From: the human T2T-CHM13v2.0 reference genome, Homo sapiens
Reading direction: 5' to 3' (one strand)
Assembly: GCF_009914755.1 (NCBI RefSeq)
Contig: NC_060936.1
DNA length: 64,000 nt
In this document: positions 43,858 through 64,000 of the stretch, one piece after another
Position numbering within the stretch: position 1 is the stretch's first letter
Layout of the letters: each line of letters starts with the position of its first letter
Position numbers and translations under genes: made by a program
Notes under the pieces: generated by a model
The model's input: the letters and a program-made list of their open reading frames with translations, nothing else
The model's database searches: none
What the model was told of the DNA's origin: nothing

Positions 43858-44723
43858 TTATGCAGGCAGCTGATCCAGTGCTGTGTAACCTTGGGGGCCA
43901 CCAGATGCCAATCAATCAGTAGAATGGGAGAGAAGGATGGAGGAAGTGAGGACAAGGGGCAAGGAGGAAGGTCTGTCCACCTGTCTCTTCTGTGCAGGAG
44001 GTGTCCAAGCAGGAGGAGCACGTCACATCCCCACTGAAAAAGCCCACAGAAAATGAAAAGCCCACATGCTTGTCCATTGCTGCAGGATGGGGGCAAGTGG
44101 AGGGGGAGAGGTGTCGGCGCTCCCACCTTACTCCCAGTCATGGCTGACTCCTCCCTTTCCTTCGTTCTTGTTCCTAATCTGTCACCATGTCCTGTCGTTT
44201 TCTTTGTCTCACCCAACCCTCTCTGCCTGAAAATCCCCTGACGGCAGCCTCATCCCTGTCACCTCCTGACTGTAGTTGGTGACAGAAGAGGAGGCTGCAC
44301 TAGTGAAGGAGCAGGGACTCCAGGTCTGGCAACAACCAGGGATGGGGCCGGGTGGGGGTGACTTGGACCAGGAGAGGGGCCTGAGTCAGGCAGTCACATA
44401 CTTCATGCTGGGGTCCCCCAAGTGAAGCACATTTAGCAAGATCTGAAATACAGGGAAACAGTCTTGTTTCTTCAATAAATAAATTGCAAAGGAGAAACAA
44501 TTGATGAAAGGAGAAACCTATAGATCCAGAAATACTAACAGGCAAATCAAACAATCATAAGGAGAGACTTTATTTGGATTTTGATTCAAACAAACTAACA
44601 AAAAAATGAAATTACTGGAAATTTGGAGACAGTAGGGTAGTTGGTAGTATTAAAGAATAGTAGTGTGCGATGGTTGGTATGATAATGGTATTGCAATTTT
44701 GCTTTTTTTTTAAAAGAGTTCTT

Positions 44724-52250: not shown

Positions 52251-53920
52251 AAGAGTTCCCCAATTCATTGAGTTCTTAGCCCTGGAGCTCAAGCGATTTT
52301 TATTTAGAAATTCTAAAAAATATCTCCCAAACTAATTTTACTCAATGTTTTCCACATATTAACTAAGGCTAAAAGCCTTTAGCATCTATAAATCATGCTT
52401 GAATTCAAGAGGATCATTTCGTTTTTCTATTCTGAAAAGTAAAAATCTAAAATGTTACTCTTTACAGTTACAAAATAAACATTTGTGGGCTTGCTACTAT
52501 ATGACCATGCATGCTTGTCTTGAGAAAGAAATATAGAATCTCTGTTTTTCAAAACTAGGAGTACTTCCATACAACAGAATAAAAAGTATCATTGAAACAT
52601 CAGTGCAGTGAAAGCTTTCAAATCCTGCTCACATAGACTGCATGTTTTCTTGCCTCATTTTAGCTCTGATTTAGCTGAAGATGTACTAAATTGTGGTGTC
52701 CGGACAGACGGCTAAAAAGTGACTGTGCTGTAGAATTGTCACCACCAACATGAGAACTCATTACCATGATTTATATTTTGTTATTTCACTACTGTTTGAA
52801 CTTTTAAAATATTTTACCATCTTGTTCACGTGGGAGTTACTGTCAAAATATGACACTTACTTGAGGTTCACTGTGAGGTCAAAAACAGTCAAAGAGTAGT
52901 TCTTTACTATTTCCAAGGAAAGAGAAAATCCAGATGCCTTCTTAGGTAGGAGAACATTGTACTTAAGGGTGGCCTAGAAAGGATAGCAAATTATAAGAAA
53001 ACCCATCCTGTATTAAGAATTATACAGTCTGACTATAGTCAGTAGTAATGTGATTTTACATTTTAAAATAACTAAGAGTATACTTCGATCATTTGTAACA
53101 CAATGGATAAATGCTTGAGGTGATGCATACCCCACTTGCCCTGATGTGATTCTTACACATTGCATGCCTGTATCATGCACCCGGTAAATATTTACACCTA
53201 CTATGTACCCACAAAAATTAAAAATAAAACATTTTTAAAAAGAAAGAACCTATTGTTTATTTCTATTACTAATGCAGTTTACATCTTTATCATCAGGGAA
53301 TCAGGTTAAATTCTTTAGTTTTCAGAATAACGTAATTTAATGAAGATAGAATACTTTCTAATAGCAATATTCCTCAAACTTCTCTTAGACAGCTGAGTAG
53401 CTTTTCATAAAGTAACTTGCAATTTTGGCTATTGATCATGTAAATACACAAAACGGTCAAATAACACTTCACGTAGAACTGAACAGACAGTCTGACTCTT
53501 TTACTGGCAAACACTCATCACCCTCTTAGGCAGATTTCTGTAACCTGGATAAATGTACAACCGCGTCCTTCCACATCTACTGTGTATTGTCCAGGTGCCT
53601 GTGTTACTTCTGAACGTTGGACCAGTAGGCGGTTATGACCGTTAAACTGGATCTCACTGGATCCTTCACTGCTAAAGGTGACAGTGTTTTGATTCTTAGA
53701 GAAGAGCCCCTCTTCCCCGCCTGGCTCTTAGGATCCCCATTGCAGGGCGGGGAGGCACCCACCGCGAGGGGGAGACTGAGAGCCAGTCCCTCCCACCCCC
53801 GGCTCTTAGGACTCGCATCGCAAGCGGGGGAGGCACGCCACGCGAGGCGGGGACTGAGAGCCAGCCCCCCTTCCCCCCGGGCTTAGGACCCCCATCGCGG
53901 TTCCTAAGATCCTTAGGACC

Positions 53921-56900
53921 CACCTGGAGGACTGTGGGTATGGGGTGTCCAAGAAGAAAGCTCAGATCTGCCCACGGCAGGTACCTTACTTGGGATTTAC
54001 AATCGACAGGGGTCCGAACGCAGCCCGGGAAAAGAAAGAAAGCAGGTCATTTACAATCTACCGGAGCCAGCCCGTCTTCCCCTCGCTTGCTCTTAGGTCC
54101 CCCATCGCAGTGGGGGGAGGCACCCCTCGTGAGGCGGGAACTGAGAGCCAGCCCCACTTCCCCCCTGGCTCCTGGGACCCCCATCGCAGTGGAGGGAGGC
54201 ACTCCCCGCGAGGCGAGGACTGAGAACCAGCCCCTCTTCCCTCCCTGGTTCTTAGGACCCCCATCGCAGGGGCGGAGGCACCCGCAGCGAGGCGGGGACT
54301 GAGAGCCTGCCCCTCTTACCCCCCTGGCTCTTAGGACCCCCATCGCAGGAGTCGGAGGCACCCCCCGCGAGGCGGGGACTGAGAGAGAGCTCCTCTTCCC
54401 CCCCAGGATCTTAGGACCCCCATCGCGGGGGGGGAGGCACTCCCGCCAGGCGAGGACTGAGAGCCAGCCCCTTTTCATCCCCTGGCTCTTAGGACCCCCA
54501 TCGCAGGGGGGGAGGCACACACCGCAAGGCGGGAACTGAGAGCCAGCCCCACTTCCCCCCTGGCTCTTGGGACCCCCATCGCTGTGCGGGGAGGCACCCC
54601 CCGCGAAGCGGGGACTGAGAGCCTGCCTCTCTTCCCCCCCAGGCTCTTCGGACCCCCATCGCAGGCGGGGGAGGCACCCCCTGCGAGGCGGGGACTGAGA
54701 GCCAGCCGCTCACTCCCCCTGACTCTTAGGACCCCCATTGCAGGGGGGGGACGCACCCCGGAGAGGCGGGGACTGAGAGCCAGCCCCTCTTCCCCCCCAG
54801 GCTCTTGAGACCCCCATCGCAGGGGGGGGCAACCCCCGCGAGGCGGGGACTGAGAACCAGCCCCTCTTCCCCCCCCCCCCGCTCTTAGGTACCCCATCGC
54901 GGGGGGGGAAGCACCCCCCACGAGGCGGGGACTGAGAGCCAGCCCCTCTACCCCCCCATGGCTCTTAGGACCCCCAATGCAGGCGCGTGGCACCCCCCGC
55001 GAGGCGGGGACTGAGAGCCAGAACCTCTTCCCCCCCTGTGTCTTAGAACTTCCATCGCAGCGGGGGAGGCACTCCTCACGAGGCGGTGACTGAGAGCCAG
55101 ACCCTCCCACCCCCGGCTCTTAGGACCCACATCGTAGTGGCGGGAGGCACCACCCGAGAGACGGGGACTGAGAGCCAGCCCCTCTTCCCCCCCTGGCCCT
55201 TGGGACCCCGATCGCAAGGGGGGGAGGCACCCCCCGAGAGGCGGGGATCGAGAGCCTGCCCCTATTCCCCCCCTTGGCTCTTAGGACACCCATCTCATGG
55301 GTGGGAGGCACTTCCAGCGAGGCGGGCACTGAGAGCCCGCCCCTCTTCCCCCCCTGGCTCTTAGGATCCCCATCGCAAGGGGGGAAGACACCGCCCACGA
55401 GTCGGGGACTGAGAGCCAGCCCCTCTTCCCCCGCTGGCTTAGGACCCCCACCGCGGATTCTAAGATCCTTAGCACCCACCTGGAGGACTGTGGGTTTTAG
55501 GTGTCCAAGAAGAAAGCTCAGACCTGCCGACCGCAGGTACCTTACCTGGGATTTACTATCCGACAGGGGTCCGAACGCAGCTCGGGATCAGAAAAAAAGC
55601 AGGTCATTTGCAATCTACCAGAGCCAGCCCCTCTTCCCCCCCTTGCTCTTAGGACCCCCATCGCAGCGGGGCAGACACACACCGCGAGGCGGGAACTGAG
55701 AGCCAGCCCCTCCCACCTCTGGCTCTTAGGACTCACATTGCAAGTGGGGGAGGCATCCTCCGCGAGGCGCAGACTGAGAGCCAGCCCCTCTTCCCCCCCT
55801 GGCTCTAGGGACCCCCATCGCAGGGGGTGGAGGCACCCCACGCGATTCGGGGACTGAGAGCCAGCCCCTCTCCTCCCCCCTGCTCTTCGGACCCCCATCG
55901 CAGGGCGGGGAGGCACCCACCGCGAGGCGGGGACTGAGAGCCAGCCCCTCTACCCCCCGTGGCTCTTAGGAGCCCCATCGCAGGGTGGGAGGCCACCCGG
56001 CGAGGCGAGGATTGAGAGCCAGCCCGTCTTCCCCCCTTGGCTCTTAGGAGCCCCATCGCGGGTGGGGAAGGCACCCCCCGCGAGGCAGGGACTGAGAGCC
56101 AGCCTCTCTTCCTCCCGTGGCTCTTAGGACCCCCATCGCAGTGGGGGGAGGCACCCCCCGCGAGGCGGGGACTGAGAGCAAGCCCATTTCCCCCCCCCCG
56201 GCTCTTAGGACACCCAACGCAGAGAGGGGAGGCACCCCCTGCGAGGCAGGAACTGAGAGCCAGACCCACTTCCCCCCGGCTCTTGGGATCCCCATCGCGG
56301 GGAGGGGAGGCACCCCACACGAGGCGGGGACTGAGAGCCAGCCCCTCTTCCCCCCCTGGCTATTAGGACCCCCATCGCAGGGGGGAGAGGCACCCCCCGA
56401 GAGGCAGGGACGGAGAGCCTGCACCTCTTCCCCCACGGGCTCTTAGGACCCCCATCGCAGGCGCTTCGCACCCCACGCGAGGCGGGTACTGAGAGCCAGC
56501 TCCTCTTCCCCCCGTCTCTTAGGACTGCCATCGCAGAGGGGGAGGTAACCCCCGCCAGGCAGGGACTGACAGCCAGCCCCTCTTCACCTCTGGCTCTTAG
56601 GCCCCCATCGCAGAGTGGGGAGGCACCACATGCGAGGCGGGGACTGCGAGCCAGCCCCACTTCCCCCCTGGCTCTTGGGACCACCATCGCAGTGGGGGGA
56701 GGTACACCCCGCGAGGCGGGGACGGAGAGTCAGCCCCTCTTCCCCCACTGGCTCTTGGGACCCCCATCGCAAGGGGGAGAGGCACCCTCCGCGACGCGGG
56801 GACTGAGAGACAGCCCCTCTCCCCCCACCGGCTCTTCGGACCCCCATCGCAGTGGGGGGAGGCACCCCATGCGAGGCGGGGTCTGACAGCCAACCCCTCT

Positions 56901-59445
56901 TCCCCCTCTGGCTCTTACGACCCCCATCGCAAGGGGGGGAGGCACCCCCCGCGAGGCGGGGACTGAGAGCCAGCCCCTCTTCCCCCGCTGGCTTAGGACC
57001 CCCATCGCGGATCCTAAGATCCTTAGGACCCACCTGGAGGACTGTGGGTATTAGGTGCCCAAGAAGAAAGCTCAGATCTGCCGACGTTACTTTAGATTTA
57101 CTATCCGACAGGGGTCCGAACACAGCTCGGGATCAGAAAGAAAGCAGGTCATTTGCAATCTACCGGAGCCAGGCCCTCTTCCCCCACTAGCTCTTAGGTC
57201 ACCCATGGCGGGGGGGAAGCACCCCCCACGAGGCGGGGACTGAGAGCCAGCGCCTCTCCCCCCCGGGCTATTAGGACCCCCATCGCAGGAGGGGGAGACA
57301 CACCCCAGGAGGCCGGGACTGACAGCCAGCCCCTCTCCCCCCGCTGGCTATTAAGACACCCATCGCAGGGGGTGAGGCAACCCCTATGAGGCGGGGACTG
57401 AGAAGCAGCCCCTCTTTCAACCTTGCTCTTAGGACCCCCATCGCAGGGCGGGGAGGCATCCCCCACGAGGCGGGGACTGAGAGCCAGCCCCTCTTCCCCC
57501 CCATGGCTATTAGGACCCCGAATGCAGGCGCGTGGCACTCCCCGCGAGGCGGGGACTGAGAGCCAGCACCACTTCCCCCCCTGTGTCTTAGAACTGCCAT
57601 CGCAGCGGGGGAGGCACTCCTCACGAGGCGGGGACTGAGAGCCAACCCCTCCCACCCCCAGCTCTTAGGACCCCCATCGCAGTGGGGGGAAGCACCACCC
57701 GAGAGACGGGGACTAAGAGCCAGCCCCTCTTCTCCCGCTGTCCCTTAGGACCCCGATCGCAAGGTGGGAAGGCACCCCCGAGAGGCGGGGATCGAGAGCC
57801 TGCCCTTATTCCCCCCCCTTGGCTCTTTGGAACCCCATCGCAGGGGGGGGAGGCACCCCCCGCGAGTTGGGGACTGAGAGCCAGCCCCTCTTCCCCCCTG
57901 GCTCTTAGGACACCCATCGCAGGGGTGGGAGGCACTTCCATCGAGGCGGGGACTGAGAGCCAGCCCCTCTTCCCCCTCTGGCTCTTAGGATCCCCATCGC
58001 AAGGGGGGAAGACACCGACCGCCGAGTCGGGGACTGAGAGCCAGCCCCTCTTCCCCCCCAGGCTCTTCCGACCCCCATCGCAGGGGGGGGAGGCACCCCC
58101 TGCGAGGCGGGGACTGAGAGCCAGCCCCTCTTCCCCCCCAGGCTCTTGGGACCCCCATCGCAATTGGGGGAGGCATTCTCCGCGAGGCGCGGACTGAGAG
58201 CCAGCCCCTCTTCCCCCCCCTGGCTCTAGGAACCCCCATCGCAGGGGGTGGAGGCACCCCACGCGATTCGGGGACTGAGAGCCAGCCCCTCTCCCCCCAC
58301 CGGCTCTTCGGACCCCCATCGCAGGGGGGGGGAGGCACCCATCGCGAGGCGGGAACTGAGAGCCGGCCCCTCTACCCCCCGTGGCTCTTAGGAGCCCCAT
58401 CGCAGGGTTGGAGGCCACCCAGCGAGGCGAGGATTGAGAGCCAGCCCCTCTTCTCCCCTTGGCTCTTAGGAGCCCCATCGCGGGTGGGGGAGGCACCCCC
58501 CGCGAGGCAGGGACTGAGAGCCAGCCTCTCTTCCTCCCGTGGCTCTTAGGACCCCCATCGCAGTCGCTTCGCACCCCACGCGAGGCGGGTACTGAGAGCC
58601 AGCTCCTCTTACCCCCCGTCTCTTAGGACTGCCATCGCAGGGGGGGAGGTAACCCCCGCCAGGCAGGGACTGAGAGCCAGCCCCTCTTCACCTCTGGCTC
58701 TTAGGCCCCCATCGCAGGGGCGGGAGGCACCCCATGCGAGGTGGGGACTGAGAGCCAGCCCCACTTCCCCCCTGGCTCTTGGGACCACCATCGCAGTGGG
58801 GGGAGGTACACCCCGCGAGGCGGGGACGGAGAGTCAGCCCCTCTTCCCCCACTGGCTCTTGGGACCCCCATCGCAAGCGGGGGAGGCACCCTCCGCGACG
58901 CGGGGACTGAGAGCCAGCCCCTCTTCCCCCACTGACTCTAGGGACCCCCATCGCAGGGGGTGGAGGCACCCCACGCGACGCGGGGACTGAGAGCCAGCCC
59001 CTCTTCCCCCCCTGGCTCTGGGGACCCCCATCGCAGAGGGTGGAGGCACCCCACGAGATGCGGGGACTGAGTCTCAGCCCATCACCGCCCCCCCCCCGGC
59101 TCTTCGGACCCCCATCGGAGGGGGGGAGGCACCCCATGCGAGGCGGGGACTGAGAGCCAGCCCCTCTTCCCCCTCTGGCTCTTAGGACCCCCATCGCAAG
59201 GGGGGAGGCACTCCCCGCGAGGCGGGGACTGAGAGCCAGCCCCTCTTCCCCCGCTGGCTTAGGACCCCCATCGCGGATCCTAAGATCCTTAGGACCCACC
59301 TGGAGGACTGTGGGTATTAGGTGCCCAAGAAGAAAGCTCACATCTGCCGACCGCAGGTGCCTTACTTGGGATTTACTATCAGAAAGGGGTCCCAACGCAG
59401 CTCGAGATCAGAAAGAAAGCAGGTCATTTGCAATCTACCGGAGCC
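53921..59445 (+). mobile_element. Four short (~140-150 bp) copies of the same pol segment at 53921-54068, 55477-55625, 57031-57170 and 59297-59445
   Basis: Each runs cacctggaggactgtgg...aagaagaaagctcag...caatctaccggagcc and translates to KKKAQIC..QVPYLGFTI. Confidence 0.85.
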
Positions 59446-59904
59446 AGCCCCTCTTCCCCCGCTTGCTCTTAGGACCCCCATCGCAGCAGGGCAGACACAC
59501 ACCCCAAGGCGGGAACTGAGAGCCAGCCCCACTTCCCCCCTGGCTCTTGGGACCCCCATCGCTGTGTGGGGAGGCTCCCCCCGCGAAGCGGGGACTGAGA
59601 GCCTGCCCCTCTTCCCCCCCCCAGGCTCTTCGGACCCCCATCGCAGTGGGTTGGAGGCACCCCCTGAGAGGCGGGGACTGAGAGCCAGCGGCTCTTTCCC
59701 CCTGGCTCTTAGGACCCCCATTGCAGGGGGGGGGACGCACCCCCCGCGAGGCGGGGAGTGAGAGCCAGCCCCTCTTCCCCCCCAGGCTCTTCGGACCCCC
59801 ATCGCAGGGGGGGAGGCACCCCCCGCGAGGCGGGGACTGAGAGCCAGCCCCTCTTCCCCCCCCTGGCTAAGACCCCCATCGCGAATCCTAAGATCCTTAG
59901 GACC

Positions 59905-60507
59905 CACCTGGAGGACCCTGGGTATTAGGTGTCCAAGAAGAAAGCTCAGATCTGCCGACGGCAGGTACCTTACTTGGGATTTACTATACCACAAGGGTCC
60001 GAACGCAGCCCGGGATCAGGAAGAAAGCAGGTCGTTTGCAATCTACCGGAGCCTAAGGGCAGAAGGCAGGTGAGAGAATTCTTAGGAGCTGTGGGGTTTT
60101 GTAGACTGTGGATCCCAAACTTTGCAGTATTAGCCAAGCCTTTGTATGAGGTCACAAAGGGGGCGGGGACCGGGAAGCTTTGGAATGGGGATCCCAACAA
60201 CAGGAAGGCTTTCAGGAGTTAAAGGAAAAACTTCTGGCAGCCCCAGCCCTGGGGCTACCAGATCTGACAAAGCCTTTTCCATTGTATGCGTCAGAGAGGG
60301 AAAAGATGGGAGCTGGACTTTTATCCCAAACTGTGGGGACCTGGCTGAGGCCGGAGGCCTACGTCTCTAAACAACTAGACAGGGTTTCTACAGGATGGCC
60401 CCCCTGTTTGAGGGCCTTGGCAGCAACTACTCTGCTAGTACTAGAAGCAAATAAGCTGACTCTTGGGCAAAACCTGAACATAAAGGCCCCCCCAAACTGT
60501 GGTGACT
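59905..60507 (+). mobile_element. Class I (gammaretrovirus-like, HERV-E-like) pol fragment: RT C-terminus/connection domain
   Basis: Translates to SKKKAQICRRQVPYLGF...FLGAVGFCRLWIPNFAVLAKPLYE...[13 protein letters not shown]...KQLD...[11 protein letters not shown], with a frameshift. Confidence 0.85.
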
Positions 60508-60545
60508 GAGAGCCAGCCCCTCTTCCCCCCCTGGCTCTTAGGATC

Positions 60546-61160
60546 CGCAGTGGACTCACAGCCTGTTTACCATATTGTGAGTAATATCATCTCCCCCTCT
60601 GGAGACCTCTGGAGATTATGAACTGTTTCACAGACAGGTGTACACCCGTCTGTATTGGGAGTAATATCATCCTCTTCCTCCCTGAATATTAAGAACAGTA
60701 TCACAGGGGTGTTTCTACTCCCTGCGATATCGCGTGTCGCATCCTCCTCTCCCACGTTGCAATGAGAAACAATATCAGTGGTGGCATGTCCACCTTCTGT
60801 CATATTGAAAGTAATATCATTTTCTTCCCTCCAGGATCGTGGGAACAATATCCCAGGGGGGTTTCCACTTTCTGCCATATATGTAGTCACATCGCCCACT
60901 CCGCCTTGGAATATTATTAAGGACCATCTAACACGAGGGTGTATACGTCCTGCGATATTACGAGTAATATCAACTTCTTGGCCTCTGAATATGAGGAAGA
61001 ATATCACAGGGTGGGTGTACACCTCGTGCTCTATTATGCGGAGTCGTATCTGTCTATTATGGGGAGTAATATCATTCTCTCCCTTTCAGGATATTAATAA
61101 CAATTTCACAGGCTGGGTGAACACAGCCGGCGATGCTGAAATTATTATCATCCTCTCCCA
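60546..61160. repeat. SATR1/SATR2-type satellite block
   Basis: Diverged units containing gatattgggagtaatatcatcctct...gaatattaagaacagtatcacagggg. Confidence 0.75.
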
Positions 61161-61529
61161 CTCTTCCCCTCCTGGCTCTTAGGACACCCATCGCAGGGGG
61201 GGAGGCACCCCCCGCGAGGGGGGGACTGAGAGCCAGCCCCTCTTCCCCCCCTGGCCCTTGGGACCCCCATAGCGGGGGGGGAGGCACACCCCTCGAGGCG
61301 GGGACTGAGAGTCAGCCCCTCTACCCCCCCGGCTCTTGGGAACCCCATCGAAGTGTGGGGAGGCACCGCCCGCAAGGCGGGGACTGAGAGCCAGCCACTC
61401 TTCCCCCCCGGCTCTTGGGATCCCCACCGCAGGGGGGGTAGGCACCCCCCGCGAGGCAGGGACTGAGAGCCAGCCCCTCTTCCCCCCCTGGCTATTACCC
61501 CCATCGTGGATCCTAAGACCCTTAGGACC

Positions 61530-62132
61530 CAAGTGGAGGACTGTGGGTATTAGGTGTCCAAGAAGAAAGCTCAGATCTACCGATGGCAGGTACCTTACTT
61601 GGGATTTACTGTCCGACAGGGGTCCGAATGCAGCCCGGGATCACAAAGAAAGCAGGTCGTTTGCAATCTACCAGAGCCTAAGGGCAGAAGGCAGGTGAGA
61701 GAATTCTTAGGAGCTGTGGGGTTATGAAGACAGTGGATCCCAAACTTTCCAGTTATTAGCCAAGCCTTTGTATGAGGTCACAAAGGGGGCGGGGACTGGG
61801 AAGCTTTGGAATGGGGATCCCAACAACAGCAAGGTTTTCATGAGTTAAAGGAAAAACTTCTGGCAGCCCCAGCCCTGGGGCTACCCGATCTGACAAAACC
61901 TTTTCCATTGTATGTGTCAGAGAGAGAAAAGATGGCAGCTGGACTTTTAACCCAAACTGTGGGGCCCTGGCTGAGGCCGGAGGCCTACGTCTCTAAACAA
62001 CTAGACAGGGTTTTTAAAGGATGGCCCCCCTGTTTGAGGGCCTTGGCAGCATCTACCCTGCTAGTACTAGAAGCAAATAAGCTGACTGTTGGGCAAAACC
62101 TGAACATAAAGGCCACCCATGCTGTGGTGACT
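61530..62132 (+). mobile_element. Second copy of the long ERV pol fragment
   Basis: Near-identical to 59905-60507 ([31 protein letters not shown]...), with additional stops. Confidence 0.85.
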
Positions 62133-62169
62133 GAGAGCCAGCCCCTCTTCCCCCCCTGGCTCTTAGGAT

Positions 62170-62800
62170 CCGCGGTGGACTCACAGCCTGTTTACCATAT
62201 TGTGAGTAATATCATCTCCCCCTCTGGAGATTATGAACTGTTTCACAGACGGGTGTACAACCTTGGTGTACAGAGGGTGTACACCCGTCTGTATTGGGAG
62301 TAATATCATCCTCTTCCTCCCTGAATATTAAGAACAGTATCACAGGGGTGTTTCTACTCCCTGCGATATCGCGTGTCGCATCCTCCTCTCCCACGTTGCA
62401 ATGAGAAACAATATCAGTGGGGCCGTGTCCACCTTCTGTCATATTGAAAGTGATATCATTTTCTTCCCTCCAGGATCGTGGGAACAATATCCCATGGGGG
62501 TGTACCCTTTCTGCCATATATGTAGTCACATCACCCACTCCGCCTTGGAATATTATTAAGGACCATCTAACACGAGGGTGTATACGTCCTGTGATATTGG
62601 GAGTAATATCAACTTCTCGGCCTCTGAATATGAGGAAGAATATCACAGGGTGGGTGTATACCTCGTGCTCTATTATGCGGAGTCGTATCTGTCTATTATG
62701 GGGAGTAATATCATTCTCTCCCTTTCAGGATATTAATAACAATTTCACAGGCTGGGTGAACACAGCCGGCGATGCTGAAATTATTATCATCCTCTCCCCC
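62170..62800. repeat. SATR1/SATR2-type satellite block (duplicate of 60546-61160)
   Basis: Near-identical to the first block. Confidence 0.75.
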
Positions 62801-64000
62801 TCTTCCCCTCCTGGCTCTCAGTCCCCGCCTCACGGGTTATGTAGCGGGTTATGGCAAGAAGACAAACTGCAGTTTCCTGCACAGAACAGCACAAACAATG
62901 ATCCAAGCTCAGTTACAACACAATATTGGTCATCATTTGACCATGGACTTCAATATCAACCCTTAGAAACCTTCCTAAAACAGGTCAGCAAAACACCAAG
63001 AAGCAATATCCTGAATGATAGGAAAATATCCTTGCTTGTGCAAATTGTTTCCACTTAATTTTTTTCAACAAATGTTAATTATATTTTTACTTTCTAAAAA
63101 TTTTTAATAAAATATAGCCTACTTGGTTAAAAATGGTGTCAAAGCTTTTCTAAAAGTTAAGGCATTACATAATTCAGTGGCCCCTGTGGCTGCCATGGAT
63201 AATTCTTTTTTTTCTGTTCATCTTCAAAGAAGGGAATTCAGAATCAGGAAAAGATCTTTGGAAATTCATTAGCATATGGTTTTACTCCGAAACTAAGACC
63301 AAACACAAAGAGAAATGCAGATTTTTCTCATGGAAATAAAACTGCTTTTTTGCATTTTCAATTTGTTTCCAAGTAAGGAAAAACATGTCATTGTTTCTCA
63401 TACCCCCCATTTCTCCTGTTTTCCTTCTTTTCATTTGCTTTTCCCAGTGTATAGCCCACAGAACTAGAGCGAAAGCTTTCTTTTTGGCCCGTATATAATT
63501 TGAACAGAGTATCATCAGGTGTCTAATGTACCACCAAGAGTGGTGCTTACGACAAAAATGTCCTCTAGACATATTCTATGTTCGCTGTGTGAATGAAGAT
63601 ACAAATGGTCATAAATTCCTGGAACGGGAGACCTCATTTCATTCATTTCTATTTAGAGGCTTCCTAGTAGAGTGCCTCATACACAATAACTGGCCAATAA
63701 ATAATTGTTGAGGAAATAAAATAAGATTAATAAGATAATAAGAATCTTATTACCAAAGATTCTTCTTCTCAGAAAGGGTTTGTTGTGATAGCTTTACTAT
63801 TAATATCTCACTCGTCATAGAGTTACAGCTTCTGCATTAAACATATTGCTATTAATATCAGGCCTACATTAATCACCTGGTTGGAAGAAAAGCCTCCATG
63901 GGAATTCATCTGTTGGGCAAGCCACTGCACAATCTTACTAGCATAGGTGAGGTCAGGAATTTTCCGGGAAATGACAGCCAACAGCACATAGCAACTCTTC

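What the first reader, a model, noticed from the sequence alone, without database searches (positions are those of the whole stretch)
53545..62876. A 9.1-kb composite array splits one ovostatin coding exon, and precise removal restores the frame
Seen: on the - strand, the acceptor tgcag opens ETAVCLLAITRYIT at 62876-62834, and the array then begins. Coding resumes at 53711 with (Q)GLFSKNQNTVTFSSEGSSEIQFNGHNRLLVQRSEVTQAPGQYTVDVEGRGCTFIQ|gt. Joining 62834 to 53711 gives a 210-nt in-frame exon collinear with A2M DTVVALHALSKY...GCVYLQ. There is no target-site duplication, and the left junction shares agcccct with the repeat unit. Inference: this was a non-retrotranspositional, microhomology-mediated insertion of satellite/ERV DNA that probably disabled the gene or became a new intron, then expanded in place.
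Basis: partly seen in the sequence, partly recalled or inferred. Interest (0 to 1): 0.8.

Follow-up and report, generated by a model that had tools for sequence, protein, structure and literature searches.

The report
Satellite/ERV array splitting an ovostatin exon
A 9.1-kb block of known primate satellite and retrovirus-derived repeats landed inside one coding exon of the human ovostatin pseudogene OVOS2P, a tidy but ordinary example of how repeat DNA helps kill a gene.

Summary
On the minus strand, 62876-62834 and 53711-53545 are the two halves of one ovostatin exon. The 9,122 bases between them are tandem repeats.

- **One ancestral exon.** It is a single 70-codon exon in 49 of 71 ovostatin proteins from orangutan, siamang, monkeys, lemur and other mammals. 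It is also contiguous in four human paralogues (A2M, A2ML1, PZP and a fourth).
- **Who carries the junction.** Only gorilla, bonobo and human models, plus two unnamed ORFs, have junction-derived residues.
- **What the array is.** It has three parts: a 79-80-bp GC-rich satellite, a ~600-bp satellite block, and a gammaretroviral RT fragment. This matches the published "SATR-HERV-E-SATR" flank of Xiao/DA core duplicons, found at many loci.
- **How it arrived.** There are no LTR ends and no target duplication. Ancestral MKLT is replaced, and the last 22 bases are an inverted partial unit. This points to DNA-level capture, not retrotransposition.
- **In-place growth.** A truncated-pol junction unique to the OVOS arrays occurs four times here.
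- **Later duplication.** The copy at 12p13.31 has its breakpoint inside the array.

Two details fail. Removing the array gives ITQGL, not the ancestral MKLT. Microhomology cannot be shown without ancestral DNA. This is a new instance of a known kind, of moderate-low interest.

The parts
62834..62876 (-). Exon half A (ETAVCLLAITRYIT + 1 nt). The ancestral part probably ends at about 62839-62838 (TAC AT); the last bases may already be repeat-derived.
   Evidence: orthologue alignment; single copy in the genome.
53545..53711 (-). Exon half B ((Q)GLFSKNQNTVTF...GRGCTFIQ, donor gt at 53544-53543). The ancestral part probably starts at about 53704 (C TTC TCT AAG).
53712..62833 (+). Composite repeat array of 9,122 bp, 62.8% G+C. 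Units lie on the + strand, antisense to OVOS2P.
54064..59274 (+). Three long runs of the 79-80-bp GC-rich satellite (54064-55454, 55620-57008, 57166-59274). Shorter runs lie at 53712-53898, 59441-59882 and 61161-61506.
   Evidence: TRF; BLAST map; the unit folds as an 11-bp-stem hairpin.
55457..55625 (+). One of four ~165-bp truncated pol stubs fused directly to the satellite (53902-54068, 55457-55625, 57011-57170, 59277-59445). The junction is specific to the OVOS arrays.
59883..60495 (+). Full ~610-bp gammaretroviral RT (connection/RNase H-like) fragment, unit e. The second copy is at 61510-62118 (unit f). Both carry stops and frameshifts.
   Evidence: frames; PF17919, 2.1e-12; MLV-type RT 4mh8, 4.4e-35.
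60540..61150 (+). AT-richer satellite block (44.8% G+C, internally repetitive, "aatatca" motif), unit e. The second copy is at 62165-62789.
62812..62833 (+). Terminal inverted partial 79-bp unit.
   Evidence: 0 same-strand and 64 opposite-strand matches with 3 or fewer mismatches inside the array; 0 of 200 shuffles reach the count. One search gives the context ATAACCC|GTGAGG.
53712..53713 (-). Other gene models use CAG at about 53722-53720 instead.
   Evidence: models P0001, P0003, P0005.
53924..61677 (-). Span holding four RefSeq OVOS2P exons made from antisense pol fragments (53924-53988, 55546-55580, 59908-60052, 61599-61677).
   Evidence: Supplied annotation; all AG/GT, 324 nt, 6 in-frame stops in 108 codons.
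61161..61260 (.). Approximate breakpoint of the segmental duplication shared with 12p13.31. Homology runs from window 45119 to about 61247.

Best explanation
An ancestral 70-codon ovostatin exon was broken by the DNA-level insertion of a piece of a dispersed composite tandem repeat. The exon encodes the end of the thioester domain and the start of the next domain. The repeat consists of a 79-80-bp GC-rich satellite, a ~600-bp AT-richer satellite block and a ~610-bp gammaretroviral RT fragment. The literature describes this element as the "SATR-HERV-E-SATR" flank of Xiao/DA core duplicons.

- **When (inferred).** The event happened in the lineage leading to gorilla, bonobo and human.
- **How (inferred).** It was a break-repair or template-switch capture, not an integrase or reverse-transcription event. 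About three codons' worth of target sequence was lost. One end carries a fold-back copy of a partial unit, formed at the unit's own hairpin.
- **What followed (shown).** The array was remodelled in place. A deletion fused pol base ~169 to the satellite, and that variant was amplified. A 1.6-kb unit is present twice. Copy numbers differ between the paralogues.
- **Later duplication (shown).** A segmental duplication took DDX11 plus the 3' end of the gene to 12p13.31. The flanks differ by 1.63%, and the breakpoint lies inside the array.
- **Effect on transcripts (shown from the annotation).** The human reference transcript skips both exon halves and includes four stop-laden exons made from antisense pol fragments. 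The insertion is therefore one of the lesions of this pseudogene.
For: **Exon split and flanks.**

**One ancestral exon.**
- 49 of 71 homologues are contiguous. These include orangutan P0009, siamang P0013, Rhinopithecus P0022, tamarin P0018, lemur, horse, camel, cat, pig, cow and elephant.
- 8 of 71 carry junction residues (gorilla x4, human, bonobo, two unnamed). The other 14 are fragments or alternative models.
- Unspliced genomic ORFs P0014 and P0023 read through the whole exon together with its intron flanks.
- Four human paralogue exons are contiguous.

**Composite repeat identity.**
- TRF.
- RT fragment: PF17919 at 2.1e-12 and MLV-type RT at 4.4e-35.
- The same pol-satellite-satellite order occurs at chr3:8.67 Mb. 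The same parts occur at chr9:77 Mb and chr13:79.9 Mb.
- Genome-wide hits fall on published Xiao/DA loci: 3p-8, 4p-9, 7p, 8p-7, 11q-67, 11q-71, 12p-8 and 13q (against Table 1 and the Fig. 2 legend of PMC2700803, and passages of PMC5088589).

**Not retrotransposition.**
- The ends lie in satellite units, with no LTR and no duplicated target.
- MKLT is replaced by IT...(Q)GL.
- The terminal 22 nt are inverted: 0 same-strand against 64 opposite-strand matches.
- The unit forms an 11-bp-stem hairpin at -8.1 kcal/mol, z = -2.66.

**In-place change.**
- The stub junction is full-length only at 4 OVOS2P and 2 12p13.31 places.

**Duplication.**
- 139 mismatches in 8,515 aligned unique bases, 1.63%.
- Homology ends inside the array.
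- The right flank is single copy.

**Transcript effect.**
Against: - No non-human genomic DNA could be read here. The empty site is shown at protein level and by paralogue exons, not nucleotide by nucleotide. The size of the target loss and any microhomology are therefore inferred.
- The orangutan protein with the intact exon may come from OVOS1 rather than from a strict orthologue of OVOS2P. Passages of PMC12874980 call OVOS2P a great-ape duplication. This leaves the upper age bound soft.
- No donor locus was found. The nearest non-OVOS copies are 92-94% identical.
- The array units of the two paralogues differ by 3.8%, against 1.63% in the flanks. Array-based dating is therefore unreliable.
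- The fold-back mechanism rests on a single junction.
- The whole-genome searches scored only 40 of 266 to 620 candidates.
- The gene has other lesions. There are stops in several upstream exons, and the paper reports a missing 5' end. It is not shown that this insertion was the first disabling hit.
Confidence: 0.75

Rival explanations
1. The array now works as a genuine new spliceosomal intron. Its GT (62833-62832) and AG (53713-53712) are spliced in African apes, giving an in-frame ovostatin message with ITQGL in place of MKLT.
For: The join is canonical GT...AG and in frame. The donor context CCC|GTGAGG is good. The NCBI gorilla model P0004 uses exactly this join.
Against: The acceptor context is purine-rich with no pyrimidine tract. 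In the supplied annotation the human RefSeq transcript skips both halves and uses array exons with 6 stops. Seven of the eight junction-bearing models use another acceptor and lack half A. The gorilla model may be driven by protein homology. Passages of PMC12874980 report no plausible full-length protein model in African apes.
Confidence: 0.1
2. The element arrived as a composite LTR-retrotransposon-like unit of the Xiao type, or as a HERV-E provirus, by integration. It was later reduced to its internal repeats.
For: The repeat family is the flank of Xiao/DA elements. Li et al. discuss a transposon-like spread for these, with 4-9-bp target duplications (PMC2700803, passages). An RT fragment is present.
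Against: There is no LTR at either end, no target duplication and loss of target residues. The three repeat parts account for almost the whole array, leaving no OR7E core or other provirus parts. One end is an inverted partial satellite unit. The OVOS loci are not among the loci in Table 1 of that paper.
Confidence: 0.05
3. Only a very small seed entered the exon, for example one or two 79-bp units or one 1.6-kb unit. Nearly all of the 9.1 kb arose later by local tandem expansion and by exchange with other arrays.
For: The stub variant is amplified locally. Copy numbers differ between the paralogues: 4 against 2 stubs and 2 against 1 full units. Stub similarities do not follow position, e.g. 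s2-o1 differ by 8 and s1-o1 by 16.
Against: Units e and f differ by 4.35%, more than unit e differs from the 12p13.31 unit (3.8%). Both therefore probably predate the duplication. The order of parts matches the canonical order at chr3, so at least one whole unit came in together.
Confidence: 0.1

Closest known systems
"SES" (SATR-HERV-E-SATR) flanking element of the Xiao/DA interchromosomal core duplicons (Li et al. 2009, PMC2700803; Mohajeri et al. 2016, PMC5088589; passages read)
   Same: The same three building blocks occur in the same order. They are 87-94% identical to copies at published Xiao/DA loci. As in those papers, the array sits at a segmental-duplication breakpoint. The timing is compatible with the 14-7 Myr DA burst reported.
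   Different: It stands alone inside an exon, with no OR7E core and no second flank. It has no 4-9-bp target duplication. The OVOS sites are not in the published locus table. The family names SATR1/SATR2/HERV-E come from the papers. No repeat library was available to confirm which satellite is which.
Exon disruption by mobile or repeat DNA leading to a transcribed pseudogene, with exonisation of the inserted element
   Same: A coding exon is split. The transcript skips the halves and recruits antisense ERV pieces that have good AG/GT sites.
   Different: The insert is a satellite/ERV-fragment composite that entered without retrotransposition hallmarks. It is not an Alu, L1, SVA or intact ERV.
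Templated or captured insertions at double-strand breaks, and replication template switching (fold-back priming, MMBIR-type events; named from general knowledge)
   Same: There is no target duplication and a small target loss. An inverted partial copy is joined at a short palindrome.
   Different: The mechanism is inferred from one ancient junction. Microhomology with the target could not be tested.
Human ovostatin pseudogenes OVOS1P/OVOS1BP/OVOS2P as described by HGNC (PMC12874980, passages read)
   Same: The locus and pseudogene status are the same. The paper also notes a "complex rearrangement" with DDX11 duplication in African apes and a coding gene in orangutan.
   Different: The passages read do not mention this exon, the array, or the duplication breakpoint within it.

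Membership tests
Alpha-2-macroglobulin family (ovostatin) coding exon | The two halves align contiguously to one exon of orthologues and paralogues | tested here: met
   49 of 71 homologues are contiguous. The A2M, A2ML1, PZP and 9.21-Mb paralogue exons are uninterrupted in the genome. Half B aligns to solved A2M chains at residues 1252-1299.
Alpha-2-macroglobulin family (ovostatin) coding exon | Neighbouring exons continue the same reading frame | tested here: met
   The upstream exon ends ...GGFSSNQ and the downstream exon begins ATLKYN, as in orthologues.
Xiao/DA flank "SES" (SATR-HERV-E-SATR) | Composite of two satellites with a gammaretroviral internal fragment | tested here: met
Xiao/DA flank "SES" (SATR-HERV-E-SATR) | The same composite is present at the published Xiao/DA loci | tested here: met
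   Hits at chr3:8.67, chr4:9.47-9.76, chr7:6.97, chr8:7.3-7.7 and 11.7-12.9, chr11:67.7 and 71.5, chr12:8.43, and chr13:40.6, 44.6 and 63 Mb. Compared with Table 1.
Xiao/DA flank "SES" (SATR-HERV-E-SATR) | Flanks an OR7E-containing core as one of two direct repeats | tested here: not met
   The three repeat parts account for almost all of the 9.1 kb, leaving no room for a core or a second flank.
Xiao/DA flank "SES" (SATR-HERV-E-SATR) | Target-site duplication of 4-9 bp | tested here: not met
   The flanks ...AGAGAAG| and |GGTTATGTAG share nothing. Target residues are lost instead.
Xiao/DA flank "SES" (SATR-HERV-E-SATR) | Classified as SATR1/SATR2 and HERV-E by a repeat library | not testable with these tools
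   No Dfam/Repbase library is on hand. The AT-richer block has 44.8% G+C, close to the 44% given for SATR1 in macaque (10.1101/2025.08.04.668424, passages). This is suggestive only.
LTR-retrotransposon or provirus integration | LTRs at both ends with a short target duplication | tested here: not met
   Both ends are satellite units and one end is inverted.
Newly gained spliceosomal intron | GT...AG boundaries that keep the frame | tested here: met
Newly gained spliceosomal intron | Transcripts that splice it out | not testable with these tools
   No RNA data are available. The human RefSeq transcript in the supplied annotation does not use it. One gorilla model does (P0004).

The most novel reading that the evidence does not exclude
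The array is a true, recently gained intron. A satellite/ERV insertion in the African-ape ancestor supplied its own donor, GTGAGG, inside the folded-back partial unit where the canonical unit reads GCGAGG. It also supplied an AG, so that at least some transcripts in apes splice out all 9.1 kb and keep the ovostatin frame. This would be a dated, mechanism-resolved intron gain in a mammal.
Probability: 0.1. Interest if true: 0.65.

Novelty: new member of a known kind. Interest (0 to 1): 0.35.

Why it matters
- **A lesion for a pseudogene.** It gives a concrete, datable lesion for a gene family member that is coding in orangutan, monkeys and most mammals but dead in African apes.
- **A readable insertion site.** For the SATR/HERV-E composite repeat, it is a case where the pre-insertion state and one full junction pair can both be read. 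These repeats mark the breakpoints of the 8p23.1 and related duplications, and their mode of spread is unsettled. A site with no target duplication, a small target loss and a fold-back end argues for break-repair capture.
- **From insertion to duplication breakpoint.** The same array later served as a segmental-duplication breakpoint. This links insertion, local expansion and further rearrangement at one locus.
- **Overall.** None of this changes a general picture. It is a clean example rather than a new principle.

Tried and rejected
- **OVOS2 with tandem repeats.** A paper search found nothing relevant in its listing.
- **Second copy of half A.** I looked for a second copy of half A and the upstream exons, expecting a full OVOS1 paralogue. 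None is in this assembly. The UniProt OVOS1 sequence maps mostly onto the OVOS2P exons (run with a stricter first look).
- **Donor locus.** I looked for one and found nothing above 94% identity outside the OVOS sites.
- **Other junctions.** I inspected the ends of the chr13:79.93 Mb and chr9:77.06 Mb arrays for comparable junctions. Their flanks are other repeats and gave no clear reading.
- **Naming the satellites.** Assigning SATR1 or SATR2 to each satellite was not possible without a repeat library.
- **Empty-site nucleotides.** Reconstruction at nucleotide level was not possible. No primate genome other than this assembly can be read with these tools, and the intact genomic ORFs (P0014, P0023) are available only as protein.
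- **Assembly artefact.** Rejected. The left junction is present in two paralogues and in independent gorilla and bonobo models and unnamed ORFs.


Full report
**What is there**

The window is human chr12p11.21, and the finding lies in the transcribed pseudogene OVOS2P on the minus strand. Reading that strand, an acceptor tgcag is followed by GAA ACT..., encoding ETAVCLLAITRYIT (62876-62834). The sequence then turns into repeat. About 9.1 kb further on, the repeat gives way to ...GGG CTC TTC TCT AAG..., encoding (Q)GLFSKNQNTVTF...GRGCTFIQ. This ends with a gt donor after 53545.

The annotated exon upstream ends ...KIVQWLAQQMNSHGGFSSNQ. The exon downstream begins ATLKYN. The coordinates and sequence in the finding are correct.

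**Was it one exon?**

Yes. A search with half B returned 71 ovostatin-type proteins. They fall into three groups.

| Group | Count | Members |
|---|---|---|
| Two halves contiguous, ...TQ(D/E)TAVCLLAITRYMKLTFSKNQNTVTF... | 49 of 71 | orangutan P0009, siamang P0013, Rhinopithecus P0022, tamarin P0018, a lemur, horses, camels, cats, bears, pig, cattle, guinea pig, elephant |
| Residues encoded by the array-exon junction (EEGLFSK or IT-QGLFSK) | 8 of 71 | four gorilla models, human OVOS1, one bonobo model, two unnamed ORFs |
| Fragments, or models that read into the upstream intron | 14 of 71 | various |

- Two unnamed genomic ORFs, P0014 and P0023, read through the whole exon together with translated intron sequence on both sides. 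In those genomes the exon is physically uninterrupted.
- Within the human genome, the homologous exons of A2M, A2ML1, PZP and a fourth paralogue are each uninterrupted from acceptor to ...LQ|gt.
- Half B aligns to solved A2M structures at residues 1252-1299.
- The orangutan exon is 70 codons.

**What the join really gives**

It is not the ancestral sequence. Orthologues have Y-MKLT-FSK and the join gives Y-ITQGL-FSK, one codon more.

The total equals 210 nt only because OVOS2P also lacks a codon further on. It reads EIQFN, where the 12p13.31 copy and all orthologues read EIFQVN.

Comparing the human flanks with the orthologous residues suggests where shared sequence ends.
- On one side it ends at about TAC AT.
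- On the other side it resumes at about C TTC TCT.
- If so, roughly nine target bases were lost. The bases ACCC next to half A may belong to the repeat.

An alternative is a separate 6-nt deletion with an insertion between the T and F codons. I cannot exclude this, because no non-human DNA could be read here.

**What the array is**

Tandem Repeats Finder reports six runs of a 79-80-bp unit, about 70% G+C. Between the runs lie two other components.
- **An RT fragment.** It is about 610 bp and its translation is a gammaretrovirus-type reverse-transcriptase connection domain. It matches PF17919 at 2.1e-12 and MLV-type RT chain 4mh8 at 4.4e-35. It carries stops and frameshifts.
- **A second satellite block.** It is about 610 bp, AT-richer (44.8% G+C) and internally repetitive.

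The order pol, short 79-bp piece, AT-richer block, 79-bp run, pol repeats with a period of about 1.6 kb. The same order is found at chr3:8.67 Mb. The same parts occur at chr9:77 Mb and chr13:79.9 Mb.

Whole-genome searches place the family at chr2, 3, 4, 7, 8, 9, 11, 12p (8.43 Mb) and 13. These positions match the published Xiao/DA core-duplicon loci. The conserved flank of those elements is described as "SATR-HERVE-SATR" (PMC2700803, Fig. 2 legend and Table 1, passages; PMC5088589, passages).

The two OVOS sites are not in that table. I take the family names from those papers. I could not check which satellite is SATR1 or SATR2.

**How it got there**

- Neither end has an LTR or a poly-A tail, and the flanks share no duplicated bases.
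- The left end (low coordinates) starts inside a 79-bp unit.
- At the right end, the last 22 bases (62812-62833) are a partial unit in the opposite orientation. They have no same-strand match in the array. They have 64 opposite-strand matches with three or fewer mismatches. None of 200 shuffles of the 15-base core reaches its count.
- The switch of orientation falls exactly at the unit's own inverted repeat. As single-stranded DNA this repeat folds into an 11-bp-stem hairpin (-8.1 kcal/mol, z = -2.66).

I read this as a fold-back, or template switch, at a broken repeat end that was then joined to a broken exon. That makes it break-repair capture rather than integration. This step is inferred from one junction.

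**Change in place**

Four times in the array the pol fragment stops after about 165 bases and runs straight into the 79-bp satellite. The two sequences share GAGCC at that point.

A 121-base probe across this junction matches full-length at only six places in the genome. Four are here and two are in the 12p13.31 copy. Every other scored hit matches only the pol side or only the satellite side (40 of 266 candidates were scored). This is a local deletion variant that was then amplified locally.

The two full 1.6-kb units here differ by 4.35%. Unit e differs from the single unit at 12p13.31 by 3.8%, and unit f differs from it by 5.2%. Both units therefore probably predate the duplication.

Stub similarities do not follow position. 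This suggests unequal exchange.

**The paralogue and dating**

Window 45119 to about 61247 is collinear with chr12:9,376,666-9,391,415, and the left junction is identical there. That copy lies next to the DDX11 duplicate. It probably corresponds to the OVOS1BP of PMC12874980 (passages).

- The unique flanks differ at 139 of 8,515 aligned bases, 1.63%.
- Beyond the array there is no homology at all.
- Half A and the upstream exons are single copy in this assembly.
- The duplication breakpoint therefore lies inside the array, in the 79-bp run after unit e.

The insertion predates that duplication. It is shared by gorilla, bonobo and human models. The upper bound depends on whether the intact orangutan gene is a strict orthologue, and this is uncertain. 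PMC12874980 calls OVOS2P a great-ape duplication and says orangutan keeps a coding OVOS1.

**Effect on the gene**

In the supplied annotation the human reference transcript uses neither half of the old exon. It uses four exons inside the array instead. All four lie in antisense pol fragments and have AG/GT sites. Two of the four acceptors (61677 and 60052) have a clear pyrimidine tract. Together they add 324 nt with six in-frame stops.

The AG of that join sits in a purine-rich context, so I give the "new intron" reading about 10%.

The gene has further lesions. There are stops in several upstream exons, and the paper reports a missing 5' end. It is not shown that this insertion was the first hit.

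**Verdict**

The insert belongs to a described repeat family that is already known to sit at duplication breakpoints, and the gene is already classed as a pseudogene. In the listing and the passages read, I found no mention of this exon being split by the array. It is a new, well-resolved instance of a known kind.

Noticed in passing
window about 61161-61260; G000 chr12:9,391,326-9,391,415: The segmental duplication shared with 12p13.31 (DDX11/DDX12P plus the 3' end of ovostatin) ends inside the 79-bp satellite run after unit e. Beyond it the two loci are unrelated. Half A and all upstream ovostatin exons are single copy in this assembly.
   Followed up: partly
G000 chr12:9,391,416-9,392,000 (L026:5416-6000): Directly after the 12p13.31 array come about 123 bases of a highly dispersed repeat end. 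Low-copy sequence follows, with a 99% identical inverted copy at chr12:9,305,100 and an 88% copy at chr12:30,889,787, near TSPAN11. This points to a layered rearrangement.
   Followed up: partly
window 44001-44431: This stretch downstream of DDX11 has a 97.7% identical inverted copy at chr12:9,397,306-9,397,736, about 6 kb beyond the 12p13.31 array.
   Followed up: no
window about 53640-53655 (minus strand): OVOS2P reads S-E-I-Q-F-N where the 12p13.31 copy and all orthologues read S-E-I-F-Q-V-N. This is a one-codon loss inside half B.
   Followed up: partly
P0002 residues 51-95; window 53712-53900 read on the minus strand: The translated 79-bp satellite matches Pfam DUF4575 (PF15143) at 1.7e-09, above its cut-off. 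That family may be built at least partly from ORFs through this repeat.
   Followed up: no
window 53924-53988, 55546-55580, 59908-60052, 61599-61677 (minus); LOC124902912 exons 59335-63201 (plus): The antisense pol fragments repeatedly supply the same donor sites (gtaaggta or gtgggtcc). The two full fragments share one acceptor (cacctgccttctgcccttag), and the two stubs use different ones. All four are used in the RefSeq OVOS2P transcript. An annotated lncRNA is spliced from the same repeats on the other strand.
   Followed up: partly
P0005 (UniProt OVOS1_HUMAN) against G000: Residues about 84-1038 find their best matches in the OVOS2P exons at 12p11.21, at 83-97% identity and several with in-frame stops. 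Only residues 1036-1185 map to 12p13.31 (run with a stricter first look). In this assembly the deposited OVOS1 protein behaves like a chimera or comes from a haplotype not represented here.
   Followed up: no
window 59883-61160 against G000 chr12:9,390,029-9,391,325: The non-tandem part of the array differs by 3.8% between the paralogues (2.4% outside CpG). The unique flanks differ by 1.63% (1.15% outside CpG). The repeat therefore diverges about twice as fast, or exchanges with other copies.
   Followed up: no
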